Shown here: positions 2,643 to 27,548 of the stretch, piece by piece
Numbering within the stretch: the first letter of the stretch is position 1
How the letters are laid out: the number at the start of each line of letters is the position of its first letter
Assembly: GCA_027067235.1 (NCBI GenBank)
Contig: JALXFQ010000067.1
Coordinates: forward strand, 1 to 27,548
Direction: 5' to 3'
Origin: Gammaproteobacteria bacterium
GTDB lineage: Bacteria > Pseudomonadota > Gammaproteobacteria > QOAV01
Length of the DNA: 27,548 nucleotides
Position numbers and translations under genes: made by a program
Notes under the pieces: model-generated
The model's input: the letters and a program-made list of their open reading frames with translations, nothing else
The model's database searches: none
What the model was told of the DNA's origin: nothing

Positions 2643-4401
2643 GTTTGAACCATTTGTCCAGCTGGGCAAGATCAATCTTGGTCCATGTTGGCCGCCCGTG
2701 ATTGCATTGACCGCTGCGCTCGGTTGCTTCCATATCGCGCAACAGGGCGTTCATCTCGGGGATGGTGAGCGCATGATTGGCGCGTACCGAAGCATGGCAG
2801 GCCACGGTGGACAACAGCTCGTTGACATGCGCTTCCACGCGTTCGGCGCTGCCGTATTCCAGCAGGTCAGCCACCACATCGCGCAGCAGTGTCGCCACGT
2901 CGGCGCCGGCCAGCAGCTGCGGTATTTCGCGCACCACCACCGACTCTTCACCCAGCACTTCAGCCACCAGTCCGGAACGCGACAGCAGCGCCTGAAATTC
3001 GCTCACGGCCGCCACCTCGTCCGGGTTCATCTGCAGGGTAACGGGCAACAGCAGCGGCTGGGACGTGATTGCGGCGTCTTCCCAGGCCTGTTTCAACCGT
3101 TCGTAGGTGATGCGCTCATGGGCGGCGTGCATGTCCACCACCACCAGACCTTCGCGGTTTTCGGCCAGTATGTAGACGCCGTGCAGCTGGGCAATGGCGT
3201 AACCCAGCGGCGGCATGTCTGCAGCGTCTTGCGCTTGCGGCTGGCGCGGGAAGTCACGCACCGGCATGTCCCGCGGCGAATGCAGATGCTGGTATCCCGC
3301 CAGGGTTTCACGCACCTGCAGACCGGATTGCTGCGGTAACGACCACTGCGGTGCCGGCGTGGCCCCGTCATCGCCGGCAAGATCGATGGGCGCGGCGCTA
3401 CCGGCGTTGGGACGGGAATCCTGCGCCACGATATCGCGCAGGGTGTGAAACACAAAGTCGTGCACCATGCGCGGTTCGCGAAAGCGCACCTCGTGCTTGG
3501 CCGGATGCACGTTGACATCCACCATGCCCGGATCCAGCTCCACATGCAGCACCCAGGCCGGAAAGCGGTCGTGATACATGACATCGGCGTAGGCCCGACG
3601 CACGGCATGGGCCAGCGAGGCATCGCGCACATAGCGGCCATTGACGAACAGATATTGCTGGTCGCGCTGACTGCGCGAATACACCGGCAGGCCGGCGCGA
3701 CCGTGGATACGCAGACCGTCTGTTTCGGCCTGAAAAGAAACCGATTGCGCGGCAAACTGCTTGCTCAGTACGCGGCCCAGCCTTTCTTCCAGATCGGTGC
3801 GGAAACGCAGCGTGGCGCGACCGTTGTGCAGCACAACCAGCTCCACATCGGGGCGCGCCAGCGCCAGACGCCTGATAACCTGCTCCACATGGCGATATTC
3901 GGTTCGATCGGTGCGTAAAAACTTGCGCCGCGCCGGGATATTGTAGAACAGCTGGCTGACTTCCACGGTTGTACCCGGTGCATGGGCAGCCGGCGCCGGC
4001 TGTTCATCCATCTGCCCGCCATGGCAGTGAATTTCCCAGCCCTGGTCGCTGCCAGCCAGGCGCGAACGCAGGCTCAGATGCGAGACGGAAGCAATACTCG
4101 GCAGGGCCTCGCCGCGAAAGCCCATGGTGACGACCTGCTTGAGATCGTCCAGGTCGCTGATCTTGCTGGTGGCGTGGCGGGTCAGCGCCGGAATCAGATC
4201 GTCGCGGCCGATGCCTTCGCCATCATCACGCACCACGATACGCGCTATGCCGCCCTGCTCCAGCTCCAGGGTAATGCGGGTGGCACCGGCGTCGATACTG
4301 TTTTCCACCAGCTCCTTGACCACCGAGGCCGGACGCTCGATCACCTCGCCGGCCGCAATCTGGTTGATCAGTCGGTTATCGAGCAGGCGAATGCGCGTCA
4401 T
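2632..4401 (-). CDS. mutL: DNA mismatch repair protein MutL, endonuclease-motif type
   Basis: NQIAAGEVIERPASVVKELVENSIDAG, GFRGEAL; C-terminal DMHAAHERITYE, ACH and CNHGRP motifs typical of MutH-independent MutL. Confidence 0.97.
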   Translation of the reverse strand: MTRIRLLDNRLINQIAAGEVIERPASVVKELVENSIDAGATRITLELEQGGIARIVVRDDGEGIGRDDLIPALTRHATSKISDLDDLKQVVTMGFRGEALPSIASVSHLSLRSRLAGSDQGWEIHCHGGQMDEQPAPAAHAPGTTVEVSQLFYNIPARRKFLRTDRTEYRHVEQVIRRLALARPDVELVVLHNGRATLRFRTDLEERLGRVLSKQFAAQSVSFQAETDGLRIHGRAGLPVYSRSQRDQQYLFVNGRYVRDASLAHAVRRAYADVMYHDRFPAWVLHVELDPGMVDVNVHPAKHEVRFREPRMVHDFVFHTLRDIVAQDSRPNAGSAAPIDLAGDDGATPAPQWSLPQQSGLQVRETLAGYQHLHSPRDMPVRDFPRQPQAQDAADMPPLGYAIAQLHGVYILAENREGLVVVDMHAAHERITYERLKQAWEDAAITSQPLLLPVTLQMNPDEVAAVSEFQALLSRSGLVAEVLGEESVVVREIPQLLAGADVATLLRDVVADLLEYGSAERVEAHVNELLSTVACHASVRANHALTIPEMNALLRDMEATERSGQCNHGRPTWTKIDLAQLDKWFKRGQ

Positions 4402-4416
4402 GGCCTGCGCACCCGG

Positions 4417-5580
4417 CTATTGGGTGGGAGATTCGGCAACGATTTTTCTTATGCGCCCGCTTTTGACGAAATGCTTGATGCCCTTGTAGATGGCGGTGGC
4501 GAACTTTTTCTGATGCAGCCTGCTTTTCAGCAGTTTCTCTTCTCTCGGATTGGAAATGAAAGCCGTCTCCACCAGAATGGACGGAATATCCGGCGATTTC
4601 AGCACCACGAACCCGGCCTGCTCGACGGAGCGCTTGTGCAGCCTGTTCACCTTGCCCAGTTCTTTCAATACGTCTGCGCCCAGATCCAGGCTTTCCGAAA
4701 TCTGTTGCGTCAGTGAAAGATCCAGCAGGACATCACGCACCACCGGATCCTTGTTTTGCAGGGGCACGCCGCCAATATAGTCAGACGCATTTTCCTTTGC
4801 CGCCAGACGCTTGGCGCGCTCCGAGGTCGCACCACGGCGGGACAGGACATAGACCGACGAACCGCTGGCGCTGGTATTCTTGTAGGAATCGGCATGAATG
4901 GAGACAAACAGGTCGGCCTGCTGTTTTTGTCTGGCGATGCGCGTGCGTTCACGCAGCGGTATGAAATAGTCGCCCTTGCGCACCAGTTCCGCGTCCAGTT
5001 CCGGATCTTTCTTGATCAGCCGGTAGAGTTCCCTGGCAATGCCCAGCACCACGGTTTTTTCATGCGCATGATAGCGCCTGCCGGGGGCGCCATAGTCTTC
5101 GCCGCCATGCCCGGCATCAATCGCCACCTTGATACGCGCCCTGGCCTTGTCCGCCAGCTTCGGCGCCCGGCGCCGGACCTTGCCCTGTTTGCGCCGCAGA
5201 TCCACCACCAGCCGGTGTCCATACACGTCGTTGGGCTTCAGCACCTGGGTGACGGGTGATACCTTTTCCTTCAGGTCAAGTACCACGCGCAGCGTGTCTT
5301 TCTGCGGCGACCCGCGGCGCACGTTGGTAATCAACTTACCCAGCAAACGCTGCTTGTCCAGTTCGCCGGTCCAGCGCGCGCCCTCCATGTCGATAACCAC
5401 GCGATGCGGCTTTTTCAGCGTGAAAACCTTGTATTTGACGCTGGAGCCCAGATCGAACACCACGCGCGTGTTGTCCGGCGCATTCCACACACGGATGTTT
5501 TTCACGTCCACCGTCCTGGCCGATCCGACCTGGGGCAGGATCAGGGCAATGAACAGAAACAGCTTCAGGGTTGTTTTCAT
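4417..5580 (-). CDS. amiB: N-acetylmuramoyl-L-alanine amidase (signal peptide + AMIN + Amidase_3)
   Basis: AIDAGHGGED, EK, FVSIHAD, SILVETAFISN zinc-amidase motifs. Named by its position between tsaE and mutL; no LysM tail seen, so the architecture is AmiC-like. Confidence 0.88.
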   Translation of the reverse strand: MKTTLKLFLFIALILPQVGSARTVDVKNIRVWNAPDNTRVVFDLGSSVKYKVFTLKKPHRVVIDMEGARWTGELDKQRLLGKLITNVRRGSPQKDTLRVVLDLKEKVSPVTQVLKPNDVYGHRLVVDLRRKQGKVRRRAPKLADKARARIKVAIDAGHGGEDYGAPGRRYHAHEKTVVLGIARELYRLIKKDPELDAELVRKGDYFIPLRERTRIARQKQQADLFVSIHADSYKNTSASGSSVYVLSRRGATSERAKRLAAKENASDYIGGVPLQNKDPVVRDVLLDLSLTQQISESLDLGADVLKELGKVNRLHKRSVEQAGFVVLKSPDIPSILVETAFISNPREEKLLKSRLHQKKFATAIYKGIKHFVKSGRIRKIVAESPTQ

Positions 5581-17661: not shown

Positions 17662-17943
17662 TCACGCTGCCCGATGAATGTGCATATCGACACGGAAACC
17701 CGCCTGCGACAGCATGTTGACCAGCCGATCCACGGTACATTTGTCGATACGCCCCTTGATGACGTCATTAAGCCGGGGTTGCGTCGTACCCAGACGTTGC
17801 GCCGCTTCAGTCTGGGTCAAACCGGAGTGTTCCACATACTCGGCGATCTTCATCATCAACGCGGAGCGCAGTTTCAGGTTTTCCGCCAGAACGACATCGT
17901 CTTCCAACGCATCCCATACGCTTTCATATTGCTTGTCAGTCAT
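17662..17943 (-). CDS. higA: XRE/HigA-like HTH antitoxin
   Basis: 93 aa; SVWDALED...ENLKLRSALM...LTQTEAAQRLGTTQPRLNDVIKGRI helix-turn-helix; ATGA overlap with the upstream toxin. Confidence 0.8.
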   Translation of the reverse strand: MTDKQYESVWDALEDDVVLAENLKLRSALMMKIAEYVEHSGLTQTEAAQRLGTTQPRLNDVIKGRIDKCTVDRLVNMLSQAGFRVDMHIHRAA

Positions 17944-18266
17944 TTTTCCAACCTCTGCGTTAATTGCCTCAACCGCCGCCGCGCCAGCTCGATATCCGGT
18001 TTTGATGTCTTTTGCGTTTTCTTTTGAAACGCATGGAGAACATGAACCTTGTCGCCAAATTTCGCGACATAAATCACGCGATACTGCATGCCCACCTGTA
18101 TTCCTATCTCGCTTACGCCAGCACCAATCGCAGAGAATGGCTTCCAGTTGAGCGGCTCCAACCCACGCTGAATACGATCAATCTCGTAACCTGCTCTCTG
18201 CCGGGCGTTATCTGGAAACGCGCGAATAACCGCCAGAGAATCTCCTTCAAAAGAAACTGATTTCAT
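17940..18266 (-). CDS. higB: RelE/HigB (Gp49-like) type II toxin
   Basis: 108 aa; F.GDSL..IR.FP..AR..AGY, YRVIYVAKF, VLHAFQKKTQKT...DIELAR; toxin-before-antitoxin order. Confidence 0.82.
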   Translation of the reverse strand: MKSVSFEGDSLAVIRAFPDNARQRAGYEIDRIQRGLEPLNWKPFSAIGAGVSEIGIQVGMQYRVIYVAKFGDKVHVLHAFQKKTQKTSKPDIELARRRLRQLTQRLEK

Positions 18267-21320: not shown

Positions 21321-22898
21321 TTAAGCCGCCAGGTTTTTCAGCGCGCGGCTGCCATTGAGATAGTGATTGAGCCCGCCCTTGCCATCGCGCGCCCTGACCA
21401 CGCGCTTGAGATCGCCACCTTCGCTCAGGCTGGACAGGGCGTACTGATCGAACAGTTTCCGGGCTTCGTCTTTCAGGGTGCCGGCCCACTTTTTTAACAA
21501 CGCGTCGATGGCGTCCTCGTCATCGAGTCGGTCAACCAGTTGCTGCAGCAAGTGGTAGAACGGCGCTTCTGTGGTGGACCAGAAGTTGGCGTCGATAAAG
21601 GACATGTCTCCCTTTGCGTCCTTCGGGCGATCGAACCAAGCGCTTTTCAAGGCGGACTTGAGGGTCTTGAGCGCATCGGTGGCGGCTTCGATCATTCTCT
21701 GTGCATACTCGGCAATGTCATCCCGCTCGTCTTGATCGAGATTGAACAGCGGCATTTCGGCTTCGTACCAGCAACGCGCCTTCATATTGTCCATGTCATA
21801 GCCGAATGCCCACAGGCGGGGGGCGAAATCCAGCTCGGGCATGCGGCGCTGCCGATCGTCATAACAACGCACGACCAGCGCGGGAGACCGGGTGAGCTTG
21901 CCTTGCTGGGCGGTGACCGCCAGCCCCAGCCAGTGGCGATACCCCAGGCCGCCCGGTTGCGCCTTGATGGAAAGGGGCTCCTTGTCCGCTTCGAGAACAT
22001 AAGGGGTCAAGGGGTGCTGCCAGTGGCCCGCGTAATTGATGCCGTAGTTTTTGGTGAGGTAACGATTCACCAGGCTGGAAGCGGCTTCACCGGTGAGGTC
22101 GCAGTGCCCCTCATGGTCCAATGGCAGCAGGCGCATGCGCCGGGGCATGGACCAATACACCTGCAAGGGGTGGGCGTGTTGAGGATAAGTTTCCATCCCC
22201 TTCTTTTCGCTGGTGCGGGTTAGAGCCAACCACGGGAAGATTTTTCCAATGGCGTCATTTTCATGGTCGCCGGGCGCTTGCACCAACTCGTCGCGGGTCA
22301 ACACATTGAGCCACAGACGCCGCCACAGGCAATCGCCCTCGCCGTTCTCCGGTGGCAGCACCAGCGTGGTCAGGGGTCCGCCGCCACGCACCGAAACGCG
22401 GTGGCCCACGCCCCCGGATGGTGCATTGATCTGCAGAGTGAACAGCGCCAGGGCGGCCATCTCCGGCGATAGTTTCTCGATGCCGCCGCGCTTGATGAAA
22501 TGATCCTGGTTGTCGCGCAGGGTTTTGCCGCCCGGCGCTTCGACGAACAAAGCGGCGATTTCTTTTTCTTCGCCCTCATCCAGTGTCAGATCCTGCATGA
22601 AGGCCGGTTCGCCGATGGCCGAGAAGATTTCGAAGGCCCGTTCGTAAGGGGCGAAGGCTTGATCCAGGGTTTCCGCATCGGGCGGTTCTCGCCACCAGCG
22701 CCGCCATTCCCTGAGGTTTTCCGGTGCGAATGCGGTCTGTAGCAGACCAATGAGGAACTGGTAGAGGGCGCCGCGAAAATCGGCGCGAGGGGCTGATATA
22801 TCAACAATATCCTCGCATCCCAAGTCTGAGACAGAAACAGCCTCGTGATTTCCGTCCCGCATGGAGACGTTAATCCATTTCAGTTTCAACAGGTTCAT
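21321..22898 (-). CDS. cse1: Type I-E large subunit Cas8e (Cse1/CasA)
   Basis: MNLL..WI, RADFRGALYQFLIGLLQ, QINAPSGGVGHRVSVRGGGPLTT, HPLTPY, GYDMDNMKARCW. ATG 22898 is 9 nt after GGAG (ORF track extends to 22937). Confidence 0.95.
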   Translation of the reverse strand: MNLLKLKWINVSMRDGNHEAVSVSDLGCEDIVDISAPRADFRGALYQFLIGLLQTAFAPENLREWRRWWREPPDAETLDQAFAPYERAFEIFSAIGEPAFMQDLTLDEGEEKEIAALFVEAPGGKTLRDNQDHFIKRGGIEKLSPEMAALALFTLQINAPSGGVGHRVSVRGGGPLTTLVLPPENGEGDCLWRRLWLNVLTRDELVQAPGDHENDAIGKIFPWLALTRTSEKKGMETYPQHAHPLQVYWSMPRRMRLLPLDHEGHCDLTGEAASSLVNRYLTKNYGINYAGHWQHPLTPYVLEADKEPLSIKAQPGGLGYRHWLGLAVTAQQGKLTRSPALVVRCYDDRQRRMPELDFAPRLWAFGYDMDNMKARCWYEAEMPLFNLDQDERDDIAEYAQRMIEAATDALKTLKSALKSAWFDRPKDAKGDMSFIDANFWSTTEAPFYHLLQQLVDRLDDEDAIDALLKKWAGTLKDEARKLFDQYALSSLSEGGDLKRVVRARDGKGGLNHYLNGSRALKNLAA

Positions 22899-23017
22899 CT
22901 GCATGATCTCCGGAGGATTTGTAATCGAATTCGACATGGAACCAACGACCCAATCGAAGCATGAATCGTATAAAAATATTGCGCATCACCAGTTCTCGAT
23001 ATATCATAAATGAGAGC

Positions 23018-23047
23018 ATGATAAAGTATAAACGGTTTGTGTATCAA
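23018..23047 (-). promoter_or_regulatory. Predicted sigma70 promoter of the cse1 (Cascade) operon
   Basis: TTGATA (23047-23042), 18-nt spacer, TATCAT (23023-23018). Confidence 0.55.
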
Positions 23048-23065
23048 GCGCAGTTCGTTTATCAT
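23037..23065 (+). promoter_or_regulatory. Predicted divergent promoter of the mini-array
   Basis: TTGTGT (23037-23042), 17-nt spacer, TATCAT (23060-23065); the implied start is about 23072, the first base of the repeat. Confidence 0.5.
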
Positions 23066-23071
23066 GCTCTT

Positions 23072-23149
23072 GAGTTCCCCACACTTGTGGGGATGAACCG
23101 GTATACACGGTTTGCGGAAACTACTCCCCACATTCGTGGGGCTGTGAGA
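23072..23149 (+). CRISPR. Antisense CRISPR mini-array, CreR/CreA-like regulatory crRNA candidate
   Basis: Repeat 1 GAGTTCCCCACACTTGTGGGGATGAACCG (23072-23100, 26/29 to the main repeat); 20-nt spacer GTATACACGGTTTGCGGAAA; degenerate repeat 2 (23121-23149) keeps the stem CCCCAC-ATTC-GTGGGG. Confidence 0.85.
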
Positions 23150-23157
23150 GGGGTAAT

Positions 23158-25866
23158 TCATCTTGCCCCTCTTATTTCAAGACCTGTTTCTGGCGAATAT
23201 TGGATTTCAACTTCCAGTCCCTTATCAGCAACTCCTTTGGCGAGCCAAACCCCTTCTTGCTCTACAAGAGGCACTATCAAGCTCATATCATCGAACAGTT
23301 TTTCGCTTTCCCTCAGCTCCTCCAGCGCCTGTTGCAGCGCCGGGTCATCCACCGGAGCCAGTTCCTGAAATTGATTGGCGTTGACCCGAAGGCTGGATAA
23401 ATCCCACGAATAACGGTCTTCGCGCGCCCAGGGTTCGAGCCGGCCGTCCTGCCAGCGGGCGAGGTAGATGGTCCGGCTTTCGTCACCGAGGCGGGTGGCG
23501 ACGCGGGCTTCCTCGTCCCAGAGTGGGCCACCCCGATAGCCACCTTCGAACCGCAGGCTGGCGAACCGACCGGCATCGCGCTCGGCATGGGTCTCGCCAT
23601 CGACCTCGGTCTTGGCGTCTATCAGTCCCGCCGGGATTGGGCCTTCATCGTCATAGACCGGCTCCAGCAGATCGCGGGCATCATCGGGCATTTTCCAACC
23701 ACCTTTTTCCGCCAGCAATCCGGCGGTACGCCACAGCACCAGGGTGTCGGGATAGACGTAGTGCGCTTTCGGGAATAGCGCCTTGTACCAGTCGGCTTCG
23801 GGTTCGTCGGTGAGCTGAGGGCTGAAAACATCGAGCACCGGCATTCCCCGCTCGCCCCGCTGGTGACGATGCAGCCTGCCGGCGCGCTGGATCAGCAGAT
23901 CGATGGGGGCGAGGTCGGAGATCATGCGGTCGAAGTCGAGGTCCAACGACTGTTCGACCACCTGGGTGGCGATAAGAACCCGCCCCCGGCGCTGCTCCGG
24001 CATGGAACCCTTGCCGAAACGTTTCAGCATGTCCTGTTCGATGCGCAGCCGGTCGGTCAGCGCGTAGCGGCTGTGGAACAAGTGCAGTTTGTCGTTTTCC
24101 AGCCAGTCGCTCTCTTGCAAGGCGCGCCAGGCTTCGCGGGCGTCATGAACAGTGTTGCGAATCCAGCAGATGCACTGGCCGTCCTCCACGGCGGCGCGGA
24201 TTTCTTCGAGGAGCACTATTTCATCATGGTGCAGACGCACGCCGACTTGTCGCGCCACCGAGGGGCGGGTGGCTACGGCTTGCTCCACGATGATGTCACT
24301 CGCGTTCGCCTGGGTGAGTAGCGGATAGTCTGTCGATTCCGGGGTGGCCTGTATTCCGCCCTGAAACGCGCCAACCAGGTCGGCTCGCTGTTTGCGGGTC
24401 AGCGTGGCGGAGAGCAGGATGACGCTGCCGCCAAGGGCGGCATGAAAGCCGATCAGGCGCTTGAGGGGTTCCGATGTGTAGGCATCGTAGGCGTGCACCT
24501 CGTCAAGGATCAGCACCTTGCCGACCAAACCGAGCAGGCGCAGGGATTGATGGCGGGCGGGCATGACGGCGAGCAGAGCCTGGTCGATGGTGCCAATGCC
24601 AACATCGGCGAGCAGCGCCTTTTTGCGGTTGTCCGCCAGCCAGCGGTTGCACTGGGCGACGATGCTTTCTTCGTCGCCATAACGCGGATCCCCGGTGTGT
24701 GCGGCCAGCAGGGATTGCCGGAACGATTCGGACGAGTGCCGGGCGCTGTGACTGAGGATCAGGCTGGGTTGCGGCTCGCCCGACTGATAGAGGCCTCGAT
24801 AGACCTTGCGCATGCGGTCATACATGGCGTTGGCGGTGGCCATGGTCGGCAAGCCGATATAGATGCCCTGCCCCTGTCCCGCCGCCATCAGCTGCGCGGC
24901 GAGGATCAGCGCCGCCTCGGTCTTGCCCGCGCCGGTGGCGTCTTCCAGGATGAACAACTGCGGCTTCGCCTTGATGGACAGATCGAGGCAGGCCTGTTGC
25001 AGGGGAGTCGGCGTTTCAAGGTAGTCGAACAGATCGCGGGGTTGTTCGAGAGGGCGGACGGGGCGCGGCAGGATGCCGGCAGCCGCCACGGCTTCCCGTG
25101 CCGCAGGCAGGGCATGCTTTTCCCAATATTCGGACAGAGGCATGGGCCGGTCACAATAGCGGAAACGTTCGCTGTCGGAACCCAGCCAGTCGGCCAGCAC
25201 GGCGATGCCCGCCAGCAGCCAGCTTGCCTGACATTGGCGCTCGGAAAAGGTCGAGTCTTCGAAATGCTGCGCCAGTCGTGAAAAGTCGGGTCGGATCAAT
25301 GCCTGCCATTCCCGGCAAAACAACAAGGCAGCCTGTTTGTCGAAATCCCTGAAATGCCGCTTGATCTTTTCGTTACGGCTGGAATTGTCGGGCGGCCAGC
25401 CATGATGGCCGGTCACAGCCGCAAGCCAGTAGTTCATGCCCTCGTCGATGAAGTCCTGCACATCTTCATCTTCGGAATCGAACAGTTCATTGCGCAGGAA
25501 TTGCTGCCATAACATCCAGCCGAGCGCGTCATGACGGATGCTGTAGTTGCGCTTGCGGATTTTTTCATCGGGCCAGAACTGCTGGCGCAGATCATGACGC
25601 AATTGTTGGAAGCTCTCGGCGAACTTGCCCAAGTCGTGCAGGCCAAGCAGAAAAACGCACCAAACTTTGGCTTCTTCGGGCGCAAGTCCTGTCGCCTCGG
25701 CCAGCCGGCCCAGGAGTTCCGGGTTTTCGTCGAGCAAGACGGCCGCCACCGCCGCCACATCCAGAGAGTGATAAGCCAGCATATGACATGACTTCTCAGT
25801 CGAATCATCAGGCTCGCCAGCCTTGCCCCAATACCGATAAATCGCTTCCGCCATCCCGACCTTCAT
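23158..25866 (-). CDS. cas3: Cas3 HD nuclease-helicase
   Basis: AYHSLDV and LHDLGK (HD), TGAGKTEAA, DEVH, LSAT, ATQVVEQSLDLD, QRAGRLHRH. Start may be ATG 25854. Confidence 0.97.
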   Translation of the reverse strand: MKVGMAEAIYRYWGKAGEPDDSTEKSCHMLAYHSLDVAAVAAVLLDENPELLGRLAEATGLAPEEAKVWCVFLLGLHDLGKFAESFQQLRHDLRQQFWPDEKIRKRNYSIRHDALGWMLWQQFLRNELFDSEDEDVQDFIDEGMNYWLAAVTGHHGWPPDNSSRNEKIKRHFRDFDKQAALLFCREWQALIRPDFSRLAQHFEDSTFSERQCQASWLLAGIAVLADWLGSDSERFRYCDRPMPLSEYWEKHALPAAREAVAAAGILPRPVRPLEQPRDLFDYLETPTPLQQACLDLSIKAKPQLFILEDATGAGKTEAALILAAQLMAAGQGQGIYIGLPTMATANAMYDRMRKVYRGLYQSGEPQPSLILSHSARHSSESFRQSLLAAHTGDPRYGDEESIVAQCNRWLADNRKKALLADVGIGTIDQALLAVMPARHQSLRLLGLVGKVLILDEVHAYDAYTSEPLKRLIGFHAALGGSVILLSATLTRKQRADLVGAFQGGIQATPESTDYPLLTQANASDIIVEQAVATRPSVARQVGVRLHHDEIVLLEEIRAAVEDGQCICWIRNTVHDAREAWRALQESDWLENDKLHLFHSRYALTDRLRIEQDMLKRFGKGSMPEQRRGRVLIATQVVEQSLDLDFDRMISDLAPIDLLIQRAGRLHRHQRGERGMPVLDVFSPQLTDEPEADWYKALFPKAHYVYPDTLVLWRTAGLLAEKGGWKMPDDARDLLEPVYDDEGPIPAGLIDAKTEVDGETHAERDAGRFASLRFEGGYRGGPLWDEEARVATRLGDESRTIYLARWQDGRLEPWAREDRYSWDLSSLRVNANQFQELAPVDDPALQQALEELRESEKLFDDMSLIVPLVEQEGVWLAKGVADKGLEVEIQYSPETGLEIRGAR

Positions 25867-25913: not shown

Positions 25914-26510
25914 TCACGACTTGTACACAACATAACCCGGAAGTTGTGATTCGTCCCGCGCGCAGACGTCGAACGGGCCTTCGGAGAGCCAGCGTCGGCG
26001 GGTGTTTTCGCTGAGGAGGCGCGGGCGGGCGGCTTTTTCGGTGCTGTATTTGCCCAGATAGTCTTCCGCGTCCGGTTGCTGGTTTTCGGCGTCCGCCCAC
26101 TGCGGCAGGCCTTGCAGGGGGATAAGGATGGCGAAGCGCATCCGCTCCCACGGGTTGGCGGCGTCGATGCGGCGGGTGAGTCGGGCTTCGAGGGGGACGC
26201 CGGCGTCCATGAGCTGGGCGACGGCGGCGTTGTCGCGCATGGGAACGTAGCCGAGTTTGTGTTGTTTCCACCAGATTTCCACGGCGCGGCGGTCGTGGGG
26301 GTTGGTTTTGTCTCGCTTGAGGGTCAGCGGCGCGCCGGGCGGGATGTTTTTCCAGACGGTTTCGCCGTCGTAGTATTGAAACCCGGCGATGGCGGAGACT
26401 TGCAGCAGGGCGATGCGATGATCACCCCCGGTCTTTGCGCTGGCCTTGTTTGTGGTGATGCCAACCGCGCTTACGGCGGCAATTTGCTTGAGGAAATGAC
26501 GACGTTTCAT
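25914..26510 (-). CDS. HIRAN-domain protein with twin-arginine-like N-terminus
   Basis: IAGFQYY...LTLKRDKTNPHDRRAV...KLGYVP..DNAAVAQLMD HIRAN signature; MKRRHFLK...ASA N-terminus; GGGAG RBS. Confidence 0.85.
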   Translation of the reverse strand: MKRRHFLKQIAAVSAVGITTNKASAKTGGDHRIALLQVSAIAGFQYYDGETVWKNIPPGAPLTLKRDKTNPHDRRAVEIWWKQHKLGYVPMRDNAAVAQLMDAGVPLEARLTRRIDAANPWERMRFAILIPLQGLPQWADAENQQPDAEDYLGKYSTEKAARPRLLSENTRRRWLSEGPFDVCARDESQLPGYVVYKS

Positions 26511-26564
26511 GTTGGCGGCTCCCTGTCGTTGGTTTTCTAAGAACCAACACGATAGCGAAGCCGC

Positions 26565-26581
26565 GTATCATTCCCTGATAC
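26565..26581. promoter_or_regulatory. Inverted repeat, candidate WYL-regulator operator
   Basis: GTATCA-N5-TGATAC in the WYL-HIRAN gap, 10 bp upstream of a possible -10 box TATCGT (26554-26549). Confidence 0.4.
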
Positions 26582-26591
26582 TGCCAGATGA

Positions 26592-27548
26592 TTATTGGTA
26601 ATTTTTTTGCATCTGGCCCAGTTCGCGGCGAAGCGCCTCGCGCAGAACCGGCGGCGCCAGCACTTCCACATCCGCGCCGTATTTGAGGATGTCGCCAATC
26701 AGTTCCTCATGGCGGCGGTAGGGCAGGCGCAGTTCGTAGCCGCCGTCGTCCAGCCAGCGGCCGGTCTGCTCGGGATGCCAGGATTCGTTGGCCACCCAGC
26801 GGGCGCGGTGGGGGTTGAAACGCAGCACGGCGGTCTTGTCCGGCTCGCCGGCGAATATGCCGTAGGCGGTGGCGTAGTGGCGGTCGAGTTGTTCGTCGTC
26901 CATATCCAGCGCGGCCTCATCCAGCGCCTCGGCGGTTTCGATGCAATCCAGCGAGAACGTGCGCAGGGCCTCGCGCTGGTGGCACCAGGCGTCCAGATAC
27001 CAGTTGTCGCGGTAATGGGTCAGGCGCTGCGGTGAAAGCTCGCGCTGACTGGGTTGATCGGCGCTGCGGGCGTGGTAGGTGATGCGCAGGCGCTGGCGCT
27101 GCAGGACGGCGTGGGCGATACGCGGGAACCAGCGCGACTGTTCGCGCCGTCGCCCCATGGTCAGCAGCCGGATGCGGTTGAAATGCTGCCCGGCTCCGCC
27201 AATACGCTCCATCAGCTTGCGCAGCCGCCGCCGGAATGGCCGGGTTTCGGCGCGCACCAGCCCCGGCTCCAGATTGGACAACAGGCTGTCGGCCACCAGC
27301 AGGGCGTGGATTTCTTCCGGGTTGAGCCAGAGGCCGGGGACTTCCCGTTCGCCCGCGGCGCGGTCGATCACATAACCGTTATGCTCGCGGTCGTATTCCA
27401 CCGGCACGGAGAACGTATCACGCAGCGCGGCGATGGCGCGCTTGACGGTAACGCCCTTGCATTCCAGTTTTTGCTCAAGCTGTTGACGCGACACCGGATA
27501 CCGTCGGTTGGCCAACTCGCGATACAGAGTCATCACACGATCAAACTT
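26592..27548 (-). CDS. wHTH-WYL-WCX transcriptional regulator (5' end runs off the window)
   Basis: Frame is open to the edge (KFDRVMTLYR...); HTH VSRQQL..KLE...TVKRAI..LRD; WYL core SPQRLTHYRDNWYLDAWCH..EALRTFSLD; WCX tail ILKYGADVEVLAP. Confidence 0.92.
   Translation of the reverse strand, partial: KFDRVMTLYRELANRRYPVSRQQLEQKLECKGVTVKRAIAALRDTFSVPVEYDREHNGYVIDRAAGEREVPGLWLNPEEIHALLVADSLLSNLEPGLVRAETRPFRRRLRKLMERIGGAGQHFNRIRLLTMGRRREQSRWFPRIAHAVLQRQRLRITYHARSADQPSQRELSPQRLTHYRDNWYLDAWCHQREALRTFSLDCIETAEALDEAALDMDDEQLDRHYATAYGIFAGEPDKTAVLRFNPHRARWVANESWHPEQTGRWLDDGGYELRLPYRRHEELIGDILKYGADVEVLAPPVLREALRRELGQMQKNYQ

What the first reader, a model, noticed from the sequence alone, without database searches (positions are those of the whole stretch)
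23026..23149. Antisense mini-array whose short spacer targets the Cascade promoter (CreR/CreA-like)
Seen: a + strand repeat (23072-23100) with an intact 5' handle ATGAACCG, the spacer GTATACACGGTTTGCGGAAA, and a degenerate second repeat keeping only the hairpin. The spacer matches 23026-23039 (GTATAAACGGTTTG) at 13/14 nt, with the single mismatch at position 6. The 5' flank is AAA, and the target lies between the predicted -10 and -35 of cse1. Established: Cascade flips out every 6th crRNA base, so position 6 is not read; partial pairing lets Cascade bind without Cas3 cleavage; crRNA-like cas-regulating RNAs (CreR, CreA) are known in type I loci. The spacer is 12 nt (2x6) shorter than normal, i.e. 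two fewer Cas7 subunits. Inference: Cascade represses its own operon, and repression lifts if Cascade is lost or inhibited by anti-CRISPRs. The class is known; whether this instance is described I cannot tell.
Basis: partly seen in the sequence, partly recalled or inferred. Interest (0 to 1): 0.9.

Follow-up and report, generated by a model that had tools for sequence, protein, structure and literature searches.

The report
Self-repressing mini-CRISPR guarding Cascade operon
Between cas3 and cse1 of a type I-E CRISPR locus lies a one-spacer mini-CRISPR whose short guide most likely parks the cell's own Cascade complex on the Cascade promoter without cutting it; this kind of element (CreR/CreA) is already published, and the main addition here is that the repressed promoter first drives a conserved 38-codon gene.

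Summary
The site lies between a predicted -35 and -10, and its PAM-position flank is AAA.

25 of 77 cse1-homologous loci carry the same antisense mini-array with its own cognate target (sense-strand control 0; cross-locus controls 0-1). Spacer and target co-vary. The PAM is AAG in 23 of the 25. In a position-blind search, 41 of 49 mismatches fall at positions 6 or 12 (P about 3e-27). ΨS length is bimodal, 20-21 or 32-33 nt.

The class is already published for type I-E (Salmonella CreR; Shmakov mini-arrays; the Citrobacter rodentium I-E CreTA), and this scan has noted it before on other DNA. This is a new member of a known kind.

One amendment: the repressed promoter first drives an unannotated 38-aa ORF (22986-22870) that is under purifying selection and overlaps the cse1 start. 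Most related CreR loci carry this ORF or a 36-40-aa membrane peptide in the same place. It may be a Cascade-repressed toxin; toxicity is untested. No RNA run was listed.

The parts
23072..23100 (+). ΨR1: repeat-like sequence with intact stem-loop and 8-nt 5' handle ATGAACCG (23093-23100)
   Evidence: 3 mismatches to the array repeat, all outside the stem and handle. The hairpin is predicted.
23101..23120 (+). ΨS: 20-nt spacer-like guide GTATACACGGTTTGCGGAAA
   Evidence: Homologues carry a 20-21 or a 32-33 nt ΨS.
23121..23149 (+). ΨR2: degenerate repeat that keeps the Cas6e-type hairpin CCCCAC-ATTC-GTGGGG but has lost the handle
23093..23141 (+). Predicted mature crRNA-like RNA, 49 nt (8-nt handle + 20-nt ΨS + 21-nt 3' hairpin)
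   Evidence: Inferred from the Cas6e cleavage rule applied. No RNA data are available.
23023..23039 (+). PAM-position flank AAA (23023-25) plus protospacer-like target GTATAAACGGTTTG (23026-39)
   Evidence: Homologues have AAG in 23 of 25 loci.
23018..23047 (-). Predicted sigma-70 promoter of the small-ORF/Cascade operon: -35 TTGATA, 18 nt, -10 TATCAT; the target lies in its spacer
   Evidence: The equivalent hexamers flank the variable target in L004, L005, L011, L015, L018, L029 and L033.
23037..23065 (+). Putative divergent promoter of the mini-array: -35 TTGTGT (TTGACA in L005, ATGACA in L004), 17 nt, -10 TATCAT, with a start near 23072. Its -35 overlaps the target's 3' end.
   Evidence: Read from the alignment. 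It falls below the threshold of the scan, so it is inferred.
23144..23175 (.). 13-bp hairpin spanning the cas3 stop codon (23158-60); possible bidirectional terminator with a weak U tract
   Evidence: Fold. Compensatory changes in L009 and L011 (GAGGGG/CCCCTC to GCGGGA/TCCCGC). The terminator scan did not call it.
22870..22986 (-). Unannotated 38-aa ORF MRNIFIRFMLRLGRWFHVEFDYKSSGDHADEPVETEMD. It is the first cistron behind the repressed promoter and overlaps the cse1 SD and start in another frame.
   Evidence: synonymous/non-synonymous 5/2, 6/5 and 8/3 in frame against 0-1/6-10 in the other frames. Helix at residues 3-24.
21321..22898 (-). cse1 (cas8e), probable start ATG 22898
   Evidence: Pfam CRISPR_Cse1, E = 1.7e-116. 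Conserved N-terminus MNL(L/I)xxxW.
23158..25866 (-). cas3
   Evidence: Pfam Cas3_HD and Cas3-like_C_2.

Best explanation
The mini-array is a crRNA-like regulatory gene of the CreR/CreA class. It is transcribed on the + strand from about 23072. Cas6e would cut the precursor after both hairpins, giving a 49-nt RNA with a normal 5' handle and a 20-nt guide. That RNA would assemble into a shortened Cascade with about four Cas7 subunits instead of six. This complex would recognise the AAA-flanked site 23026-23039 through seed pairing at positions 1-5, 7-11 and 13-14. It would sit between the -35 and -10 of the promoter that drives a 38-aa ORF and then cse1-cse2-cas7-cas5-cas6e. It would also cover the -35 of the mini-array's own promoter. 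Binding would block RNA polymerase. Cleavage would not follow, because pairing ends after 14 nt and the guide is at or below the length that supports interference. The result is a negative feedback loop: less functional Cascade (loss, anti-CRISPR, or competition by array crRNAs) means more transcription. Shown here: the sequence anatomy, conservation, spacer-target covariation, PAM conservation, 6-nt mismatch periodicity, and the coding status of the small ORF. Inferred: transcription, processing, binding, repression, and complex stoichiometry.
For: 25/77 homologous loci carry an antisense mini-array with a cognate target flanked by AAG or AAA; the sense-strand control gave 0 and five cross-locus shuffles gave 0,0,0,1,0. 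ΨS sequences differ between loci yet each matches its own promoter. In a position-blind search (at least 11/14 matches), 41 of 49 mismatches fall at positions 6 or 12, P = 3e-27. Positions 15-17 match at 39-65% and position 18 at 33%. The target sits either in the -35/-10 spacer or directly against the -35. The window's target is the only full seed match in the 2.39-Mb genome. The precursor folds into the ΨR1, ΨR2 and terminal hairpins with z = -5.4. Published precedent: Salmonella I-E CreR represses PcasA about 8.6-fold with E. coli Cascade (10.1101/2023.03.10.532045). About 19% of bacterial I-E loci carry mini-arrays transcribed opposite to cas3, with an AAG PAM and sixth-position mismatches (10.1101/2023.03.03.530964). 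Shortened spacers give Cascades with fewer Cas7, and interference needs more than 20 nt (PMC5159557).
Against: There is no transcript, processing or binding evidence; no RNA run was listed. The window's PAM is AAA, which in E. coli is weak and spacer-dependent, so repression here may be weaker than in relatives. The mini-array's own promoter is weak in the window (3/6 at the -35) and was not called by the scan. The promoter assignments are consensus matches only. The loci are not phylogenetically independent, so the P values overstate.
Confidence: 0.85

Rival explanations
1. The element is the antitoxin half (CreA) of a CreTA/CrePA-type guard, not a stand-alone CreR. The 38-aa ORF behind the repressed promoter would be a translated toxin that harms the cell when Cascade is lost or inhibited. 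This does not exclude autoregulation; it changes what the circuit is mainly for.
For: The ORF is real: synonymous changes are in excess only in its own frame, and it is conserved at the amino-acid level in loci with 56-89% Cse1 identity. Of the 25 CreR-positive loci, 19 clearly carry this ORF (9) or a 36-58-aa single-TM peptide (10) between target and cse1, and 2 more probably do. None was seen in the loci without a mini-array. All 3 database relatives of the TM peptide that I looked up lie between cas3 and cse1 with a mini-array and an AAG-flanked target. HicA/HicB genes occupy the same slot in other loci. A translated 96-bp ORF in the cas3-casA gap of C. rodentium I-E is a proven Cascade-repressed toxin (PMC12055562). 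CreP occupies the cas3-csy1 gap in I-F.
Against: Toxicity is untested. There is no hit in Pfam, NCBIfam, PHROGs or PADLOC and no informative Atlas hit. The window's peptide is a cationic amphipathic helix (17-residue hydropathy 0.7; helix 3-24), not a classic membrane toxin. It appears to be co-transcribed with the Cascade genes, so it is made whenever Cascade is made. Its overlap with the cse1 SD and start would also fit a translational-coupling or leader role.
Confidence: 0.45
2. The two repeats are inert debris of an old array, and the 13/14 match is coincidence.
For: ΨR2 is degenerate, the PAM is non-canonical, and short matches do occur by chance (about 0.3 full seed matches expected genome-wide by my arithmetic).
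Against: Conservation of position and orientation, spacer-target covariation, the AAG PAM and the mismatch periodicity across 25 loci, with clean controls. The only genome-wide match lies 75 nt away in the adjacent promoter.
Confidence: 0.03
3. Regulation is independent of Cascade. Either a protein binds the 13-bp inverted repeat (23013-23025 / 23058-23070) to control the divergent promoters, or the + strand transcript acts by antisense or transcriptional interference on cas3 read-through.
For: A perfect 13-bp inverted repeat brackets the target. The + strand transcript would be antisense to the cas3 3' end and to any read-through RNA.
Against: The inverted repeat is only partly kept in L004 and is absent in L005. 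It is explained by two opposed TATCAT -10 elements. Neither model predicts a PAM, a conserved 5' handle or mismatches at every sixth position. The small-ORF/cse1 transcript and the mini-array diverge, so they do not overlap.
Confidence: 0.05

Closest known systems
CreR of the Salmonella enterica type I-E locus (Liu et al., bioRxiv 10.1101/2023.03.10.532045)
   Same: It is a degenerate mini-CRISPR upstream of casA/cse1. ΨR1 keeps the 5' handle and ΨR2 keeps the hairpin. A partial seed match lies next to a PAM in the casA promoter region. Cascade autorepression there is relieved by crRNA competition and by an anti-CRISPR.
   Different: Salmonella has 15 consecutive matches, an AAG PAM and a target about 140 bp upstream of casA. 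The window has 13/14 matches with a position-6 mismatch, an AAA PAM, a 20-nt ΨS, a target inside the -35/-10 spacer, and a conserved 38-aa ORF between target and cse1. Nothing here has been tested experimentally.
Regulatory mini-arrays of type I-E loci (Shmakov et al., bioRxiv 10.1101/2023.03.03.530964 / NAR 2023)
   Same: They lie in the cas3-cas8e gap and are transcribed opposite to cas3. They have a partial match to the cas8 promoter with an AAG PAM and sixth-position mismatches, and occur in about 19% of bacterial I-E loci.
   Different: In the text I read, that survey does not mention small proteins or transmembrane peptides behind the target (0 occurrences of these terms). This lineage (hydrothermal-vent Gammaproteobacteria MAGs) is a new instance.
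CreTA of Citrobacter rodentium type I-E (Basta, Campbell et al., Nat Microbiol 2025, PMC12055562)
   Same: It has an antisense crRNA-like gene and a PAM-flanked partial target at a promoter in the cas3-casA gap, followed by a very small ORF (96 bp) that must be translated.
   Different: Their toxin is proven and its target PAM is ATG. Here toxicity is untested. Homology between the two peptides could not be checked because I had no access to their sequence. The window's ORF overlaps the cse1 start.
CrePA of Acinetobacter baylyi type I-F (Shu et al., bioRxiv 10.1101/2024.01.05.574328)
   Same: It consists of a creA mini-array, a repressed promoter and a protein-coding ORF, placed between cas3 and the large Cascade subunit gene.
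   Different: It belongs to subtype I-F with a CC PAM and a 30-nt ΨS, and its toxin is a 103-aa KilAC-domain protein of phage origin. There is no sequence relation to the 38-aa ORF.
CreTA of Haloarcula hispanica type I-B (Li et al., Science 2021; as described)
   Same: A crRNA-like RNA guides Cascade to repress a neighbouring promoter through partial pairing.
   Different: It is archaeal and of subtype I-B, its toxin is an RNA that sequesters a rare tRNA, and it lies between cas6 and cas8.

Membership tests
CreR/CreA crRNA-like regulatory RNA (crlRNA) of type I systems | Two CRISPR-repeat-like sequences flank one spacer-like sequence inside the cas locus | tested here: met
   ΨR1 23072-23100, ΨS 23101-23120 and ΨR2 23121-23149 lie in the cas3-cse1 gap.
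CreR/CreA crRNA-like regulatory RNA (crlRNA) of type I systems | ΨR1 keeps the part that becomes the 5' handle; ΨR2 keeps the hairpin that becomes the 3' handle | tested here: met
   The handle ATGAACCG is identical to the array repeat. The ΨR2 stem CCCCAC/GTGGGG is identical and the rest is degenerate.
CreR/CreA crRNA-like regulatory RNA (crlRNA) of type I systems | Partial, seed-biased complementarity of ΨS to a promoter in the locus | tested here: met
   13/14 match inside the predicted -35/-10 spacer. The same holds in 25/77 homologues, with covariation.
CreR/CreA crRNA-like regulatory RNA (crlRNA) of type I systems | The target is flanked by the subtype's PAM | tested here: inconclusive
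   The window has AAA. 23 of 25 homologues have the canonical AAG. In E. coli I-E, AAA is a weak and spacer-dependent PAM.
CreR/CreA crRNA-like regulatory RNA (crlRNA) of type I systems | The RNA is transcribed and is processed in a Cas6-dependent way | not testable with these tools
   No RNA run was listed. Only DNA metagenome contigs of relatives were available.
CreR/CreA crRNA-like regulatory RNA (crlRNA) of type I systems | Repression of the target promoter depends on Cascade and on ΨS | not testable with these tools
   A reporter assay is needed. The only indirect support is the 6-nt periodic mismatch pattern.
CreR in the strict sense (stand-alone, no coupled toxin) | No toxin gene lies behind the repressed promoter | tested here: inconclusive
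   A conserved 38-aa ORF is the first cistron behind the target. Whether it is toxic is unknown.
CreTA/CrePA (Cascade-repressed toxin plus crRNA-like antitoxin) | The gene product behind the repressed promoter is toxic when derepressed | not testable with these tools
   The architecture matches C. rodentium I-E CreTA and I-F CrePA, but there are no toxicity data and no family hit.
CreTA/CrePA (Cascade-repressed toxin plus crRNA-like antitoxin) | The cargo gene is consistently linked to the mini-array and its target | tested here: met
   19 clear plus 2 probable of the 25 mini-array loci carry a small ORF between target and cse1; none of the loci without a mini-array does. All 3 database relatives that I looked up agree.

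The most novel reading that the evidence does not exclude
The 38-aa cationic-helix protein (and, in sister loci, the 36-40-aa membrane peptide) would be a new family of translated, Cascade-repressed toxins placed as the first cistron of the Cascade operon. One promoter and one 20-nt guide would then couple Cas autoregulation to an addiction or anti-anti-CRISPR suicide response. The 12-nt-shortened guide would build a dedicated four-Cas7 'regulatory' Cascade that cannot trigger Cas3.
Probability: 0.35. Interest if true: 0.55.

Novelty: new member of a known kind. Interest (0 to 1): 0.35.

Why it matters
The element shows that the CreR/CreA design reaches uncultured hydrothermal-vent Gammaproteobacteria. 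The 77-locus comparison gives a clean evolutionary read-out of how Cascade reads DNA: positions 6 and 12 are free, there is a 14-nt functional seed, and the PAM is kept. It also gives two practical leads. First, natural guides come in two lengths 12 nt apart, which suggests selection for shortened, binding-only Cascades; this is useful for CRISPRi design. Second, two unannotated families of tiny proteins are almost always the first product of the repressed promoter. If they are toxins, many I-E elements now called 'CreR' are really toxin-antitoxin guards like the one proven in Citrobacter rodentium.

Tried and rejected
- Taxonomic relatives were of no use. Only 2 of 60 related genomes had any cse1 match.
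- No expression evidence was found. No RNA run was listed. The four DNA metagenome runs hold only 85-95% alleles and do not map across 22992-23055.
- Rfam gave no match at E <= 1.
- The small ORFs gave nothing significant in Pfam, NCBIfam, PHROGs or PADLOC, and the Atlas scores were <= 0.75.
The alignment-based searches did work.
- The E. coli K-12 tangent was inconclusive. A lone antisense repeat, an AAG-flanked partial target and a 39-aa GTG ORF overlapping the casA start are present. The region is >= 99% identical in almost all E. coli genomes, so coding selection could not be tested.
- The idea that the 13-bp inverted repeat is a protein operator was rejected because the repeat is not conserved.
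- A programmed frameshift fusing the small ORF to Cse1 was considered and not pursued. I did not look for a slippery site, and the membrane-peptide loci do not overlap cse1 at all.
- My first per-position table is circular for the positions used in detection. It was replaced by the position-blind test.

Full report
**Setting.** The window is contig C67 of a 2.39-Mb, 474-contig genome. The closest cse1 relatives are Gammaproteobacteria MAGs, and the sequencing runs that hold related sequence are labelled hydrothermal vent metagenome. The - strand carries a complete type I-E system:
- a WYL regulator (26592-27536) and a HIRAN protein (25914-26510);
- cas3 (23158-25866), cse1, cse2, cas7, cas5 and cas6e;
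- a Gp49/HTH pair, then cas1 and cas2;
- an array of about 85 repeats (16295 down to 11201; repeat GCGTTCCCCACGCCTGTGGGGATGAACCG, 32-nt spacers).

**Observation.**
- ΨR1 (23072-23100, + strand) differs from the array repeat at three positions outside the stem and handle.
- ΨS is 20 nt.
- ΨR2 keeps only the hairpin.
- ΨS matches 23026-23039 at 13/14, with the mismatch at position 6.
- The three bases 5' of the site are AAA.
- A consensus scan places TTGATA-18-TATCAT on the - strand, so that the site fills the promoter spacer.
- In the whole genome this is the only site matching all 12 read seed positions with a PAM-like flank.

**Comparative test.** I fetched 80 loci encoding Cse1 relatives of 44-93% identity. 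For each, I searched the 700 nt upstream of cse1 for a handle-like octamer followed by a 14-mer that recurs next to AAG or AAA.
- 25 of 77 usable loci scored on the antisense strand.
- None scored on the sense strand, and 0-1 scored when spacers were paired with other loci's promoters.
- ΨS differs from locus to locus, but each matches its own promoter. Against L005 the window differs at positions 1, 3 and 7 in both spacer and target. Against L009 and L011 it differs at positions 3, 8, 9 and 11.
- 23 of the 25 loci have the canonical AAG; only the window and L045 have AAA.

That search ignored positions 6 and 12, so I repeated it position-blind (at least 11 of 14 matches). It found 26 loci (24 non-redundant), and 41 of 49 mismatches fell at position 6 (22) or 12 (19), binomial P about 3e-27. 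Beyond position 14, matching decays (39-65% at 15-17, 33% at 18, then near chance). This is the footprint expected if selection acts through Cascade, which does not read every sixth base. The loci are related, so the P values overstate, but the effect is very large.

**Geometry.**
- In the window and its nearer relatives the target fills the -35/-10 spacer and the PAM abuts the -10.
- In a second group the PAM overlaps the -35.
- In L017 and L019 the target lies in the 5' UTR.
- The mini-array always lies 59-405 nt from its target (about 75-100 nt in most loci) and points away from it.
- In the alignment of close relatives, a -35 for the mini-array overlaps the 3' end of the target (TTGACA in L005, ATGACA in L004, TTGTGT in the window), with a TATCAT -10 at 23060-23065. 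Cascade would therefore also throttle its own guide. This promoter is inferred.
- The precursor folds into the ΨR1, ΨR2 and a 13-bp terminal hairpin over the cas3 stop (z = -5.4). That hairpin shows compensatory changes in L009 and L011.

**Guide length.** ΨS is 20-21 nt in 9 loci, including the window, and 32-33 nt in 16 (with ΨR2 boundaries checked by eye). It also fits Kuznedelov et al., who found that shortened crRNAs build Cascades with fewer Cas7 and that interference needs spacers longer than 20 nt (PMC5159557). Short pairing and a short guide would both protect the chromosome from Cas3.

**PAM.** AAA is not canonical. In E. coli it was less enriched and was seen at high Cascade dose (10.1101/2021.10.18.464778). 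It supported interference or only priming, depending on the spacer (PMC4678831). Repression in this organism may therefore need more Cascade than in its relatives. This is an inference.

- The conserved Cse1 N-terminus (MNL(L/I)xxxW) begins at ATG 22898, behind a GGAG SD. L004 and L005 have ATA where the window has the 22937 ATG.
- Between the promoter and cse1 lies an ORF of 38 codons (22986-22870). It overlaps the cse1 SD and start in another frame.
- It recurs in L004, L005, L011, L015, L017, L018 and L019 with the motif M(R/K)N..F.R..L..G.W..(I/L)E. L009 also keeps the peptide, but out of frame with its ATG.
- Codon changes among the window, L004 and L005 are synonymous/non-synonymous 5/2, 6/5 and 8/3 in its frame, against 0-1/6-10 in the other two frames. 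It is therefore a protein-coding gene.
- AlphaFold2 gives one helix (residues 3-24, pLDDT about 75-80) and a disordered tail. Hydropathy is moderate, with four arginines.
- Ten other mini-array loci instead carry a 36-58-aa peptide with an amphipathic N-terminus and a clear transmembrane helix. Its 25 database relatives carry no functional annotation ('hypothetical' or 'uncharacterized' where a source names them at all). The three that I looked up all lie between cas3 and cse1 with a mini-array and an AAG-flanked target.
- In total, 19 clear and 2 probable of the 25 mini-array loci have such an ORF between target and cse1. No locus without a mini-array has one. L048 and L080 have a mini-array whose target I could not find, and L054 is degenerate.
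- No library recognises either peptide.

**Comparison with the literature.** The class is established.
- CreR autorepression was shown for Salmonella I-E.
- Shmakov et al. found mini-arrays opposite to cas3 in about 19% of bacterial I-E loci, with an AAG PAM and sixth-position mismatches.
- Phages mimic these RNAs.
- A lead from earlier notes of this scan took me to Basta, Campbell et al. They showed that C. rodentium I-E has a Cascade-repressed 96-bp ORF in the cas3-casA gap that must be translated to be toxic.
- CrePA is the I-F analogue.

The small-ORF arrangement is therefore also a known kind. What is new is the lineage, the two peptide families, and the breadth of the association. I could not compare the peptides with the C. 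rodentium toxin.

**Population data.** Vent metagenome contigs 85-95% identical to the window map to the cse1/small-ORF side and to the mini-array, but not across 22992-23055, which is replaced by unlike sequence of equal length. Loose ends show other ΨS alleles (TTGTAGGCGGTTTG..., ATATAGGCGGTTTG...), and position 6 of ΨS is polymorphic. The guide-target pair is thus the fastest-evolving part of the region. One possible reason, which is speculation, is escape from phage-borne mimics.

**Verdict.** It is a new member of a known kind. The toxin reading of the small ORF is plausible (0.45) and untested.

Noticed in passing
window 22870-22986 (- strand): An unannotated 38-aa ORF under purifying selection. 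It is the first cistron behind the Cascade-targeted promoter and overlaps the cse1 SD and start in another frame.
   Followed up: yes
L033, L036, L041, L043, L048, L056, L057, L061, L067, L070, L072, L080, L084-L087 (just upstream of cse1): A family of 36-58-aa peptides with an amphipathic N-terminus and one transmembrane helix (...ALIALALVLAIIVALKM). It is always found between a mini-array target and cse1, and no source gives it a functional name.
   Followed up: partly
window 22898 vs 22937: The longest cse1 ORF starts at 22937. The conserved N-terminus, the SD and the relatives (ATA at that codon in L004 and L005) point to ATG 22898.
   Followed up: yes
24 non-redundant mini-array loci: Position 6 of ΨS matches its target in only about 2 of 24 loci, below the 25% expected for a free position (in the set 1 of 23; binomial P about 0.01). 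This hints that a mismatch there is favoured, not merely tolerated.
   Followed up: partly
window 22992-23055 in vent metagenome runs X1-X4: The promoter/target segment is replaced by unlike sequence of equal length in related populations, while the flanks stay 85-95% identical. Other ΨS alleles are seen in loose ends.
   Followed up: partly
window 17662-18266 (- strand): A Gp49-like (HigB-type) gene and an HTH_37/XRE gene lie between cas6e and cas1. This looks like a toxin-antitoxin pair inside the cas operon (Pfam E = 8e-23 and 3e-22).
   Followed up: partly
window 25914-27536 (- strand): A wHTH-WYL-WCX regulator and a HIRAN-domain protein lie directly upstream of cas3.
   Followed up: no
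L050, L052, L058, L063 (HicA-like) and L061 (HicB-like), upstream of cse1: HicA/HicB-type toxin-antitoxin genes occupy the cas3-cse1 gap in several Methylobacter and Methylomonas loci. In L061 they lie downstream of a mini-array target and a membrane-peptide ORF.
   Followed up: no
L088 (E. coli K-12) 4136-4541: K-12 has a lone antisense repeat next to the cas3 stop. The 18 nt after it match an AAG-flanked site just upstream of a TTGCAG -35 (mismatches at positions 6, 9, 17 and 18). A 39-aa GTG ORF overlaps the casA start. The region is too invariant in E. coli to test for coding.
   Followed up: partly
L007, L010, L013, L014, L016, L020, L024, L025, L028: In these relatives cas3 runs straight into cse1 with no gap, no mini-array and no small ORF. 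The whole regulatory cassette is therefore gained or lost as a unit.
   Followed up: no
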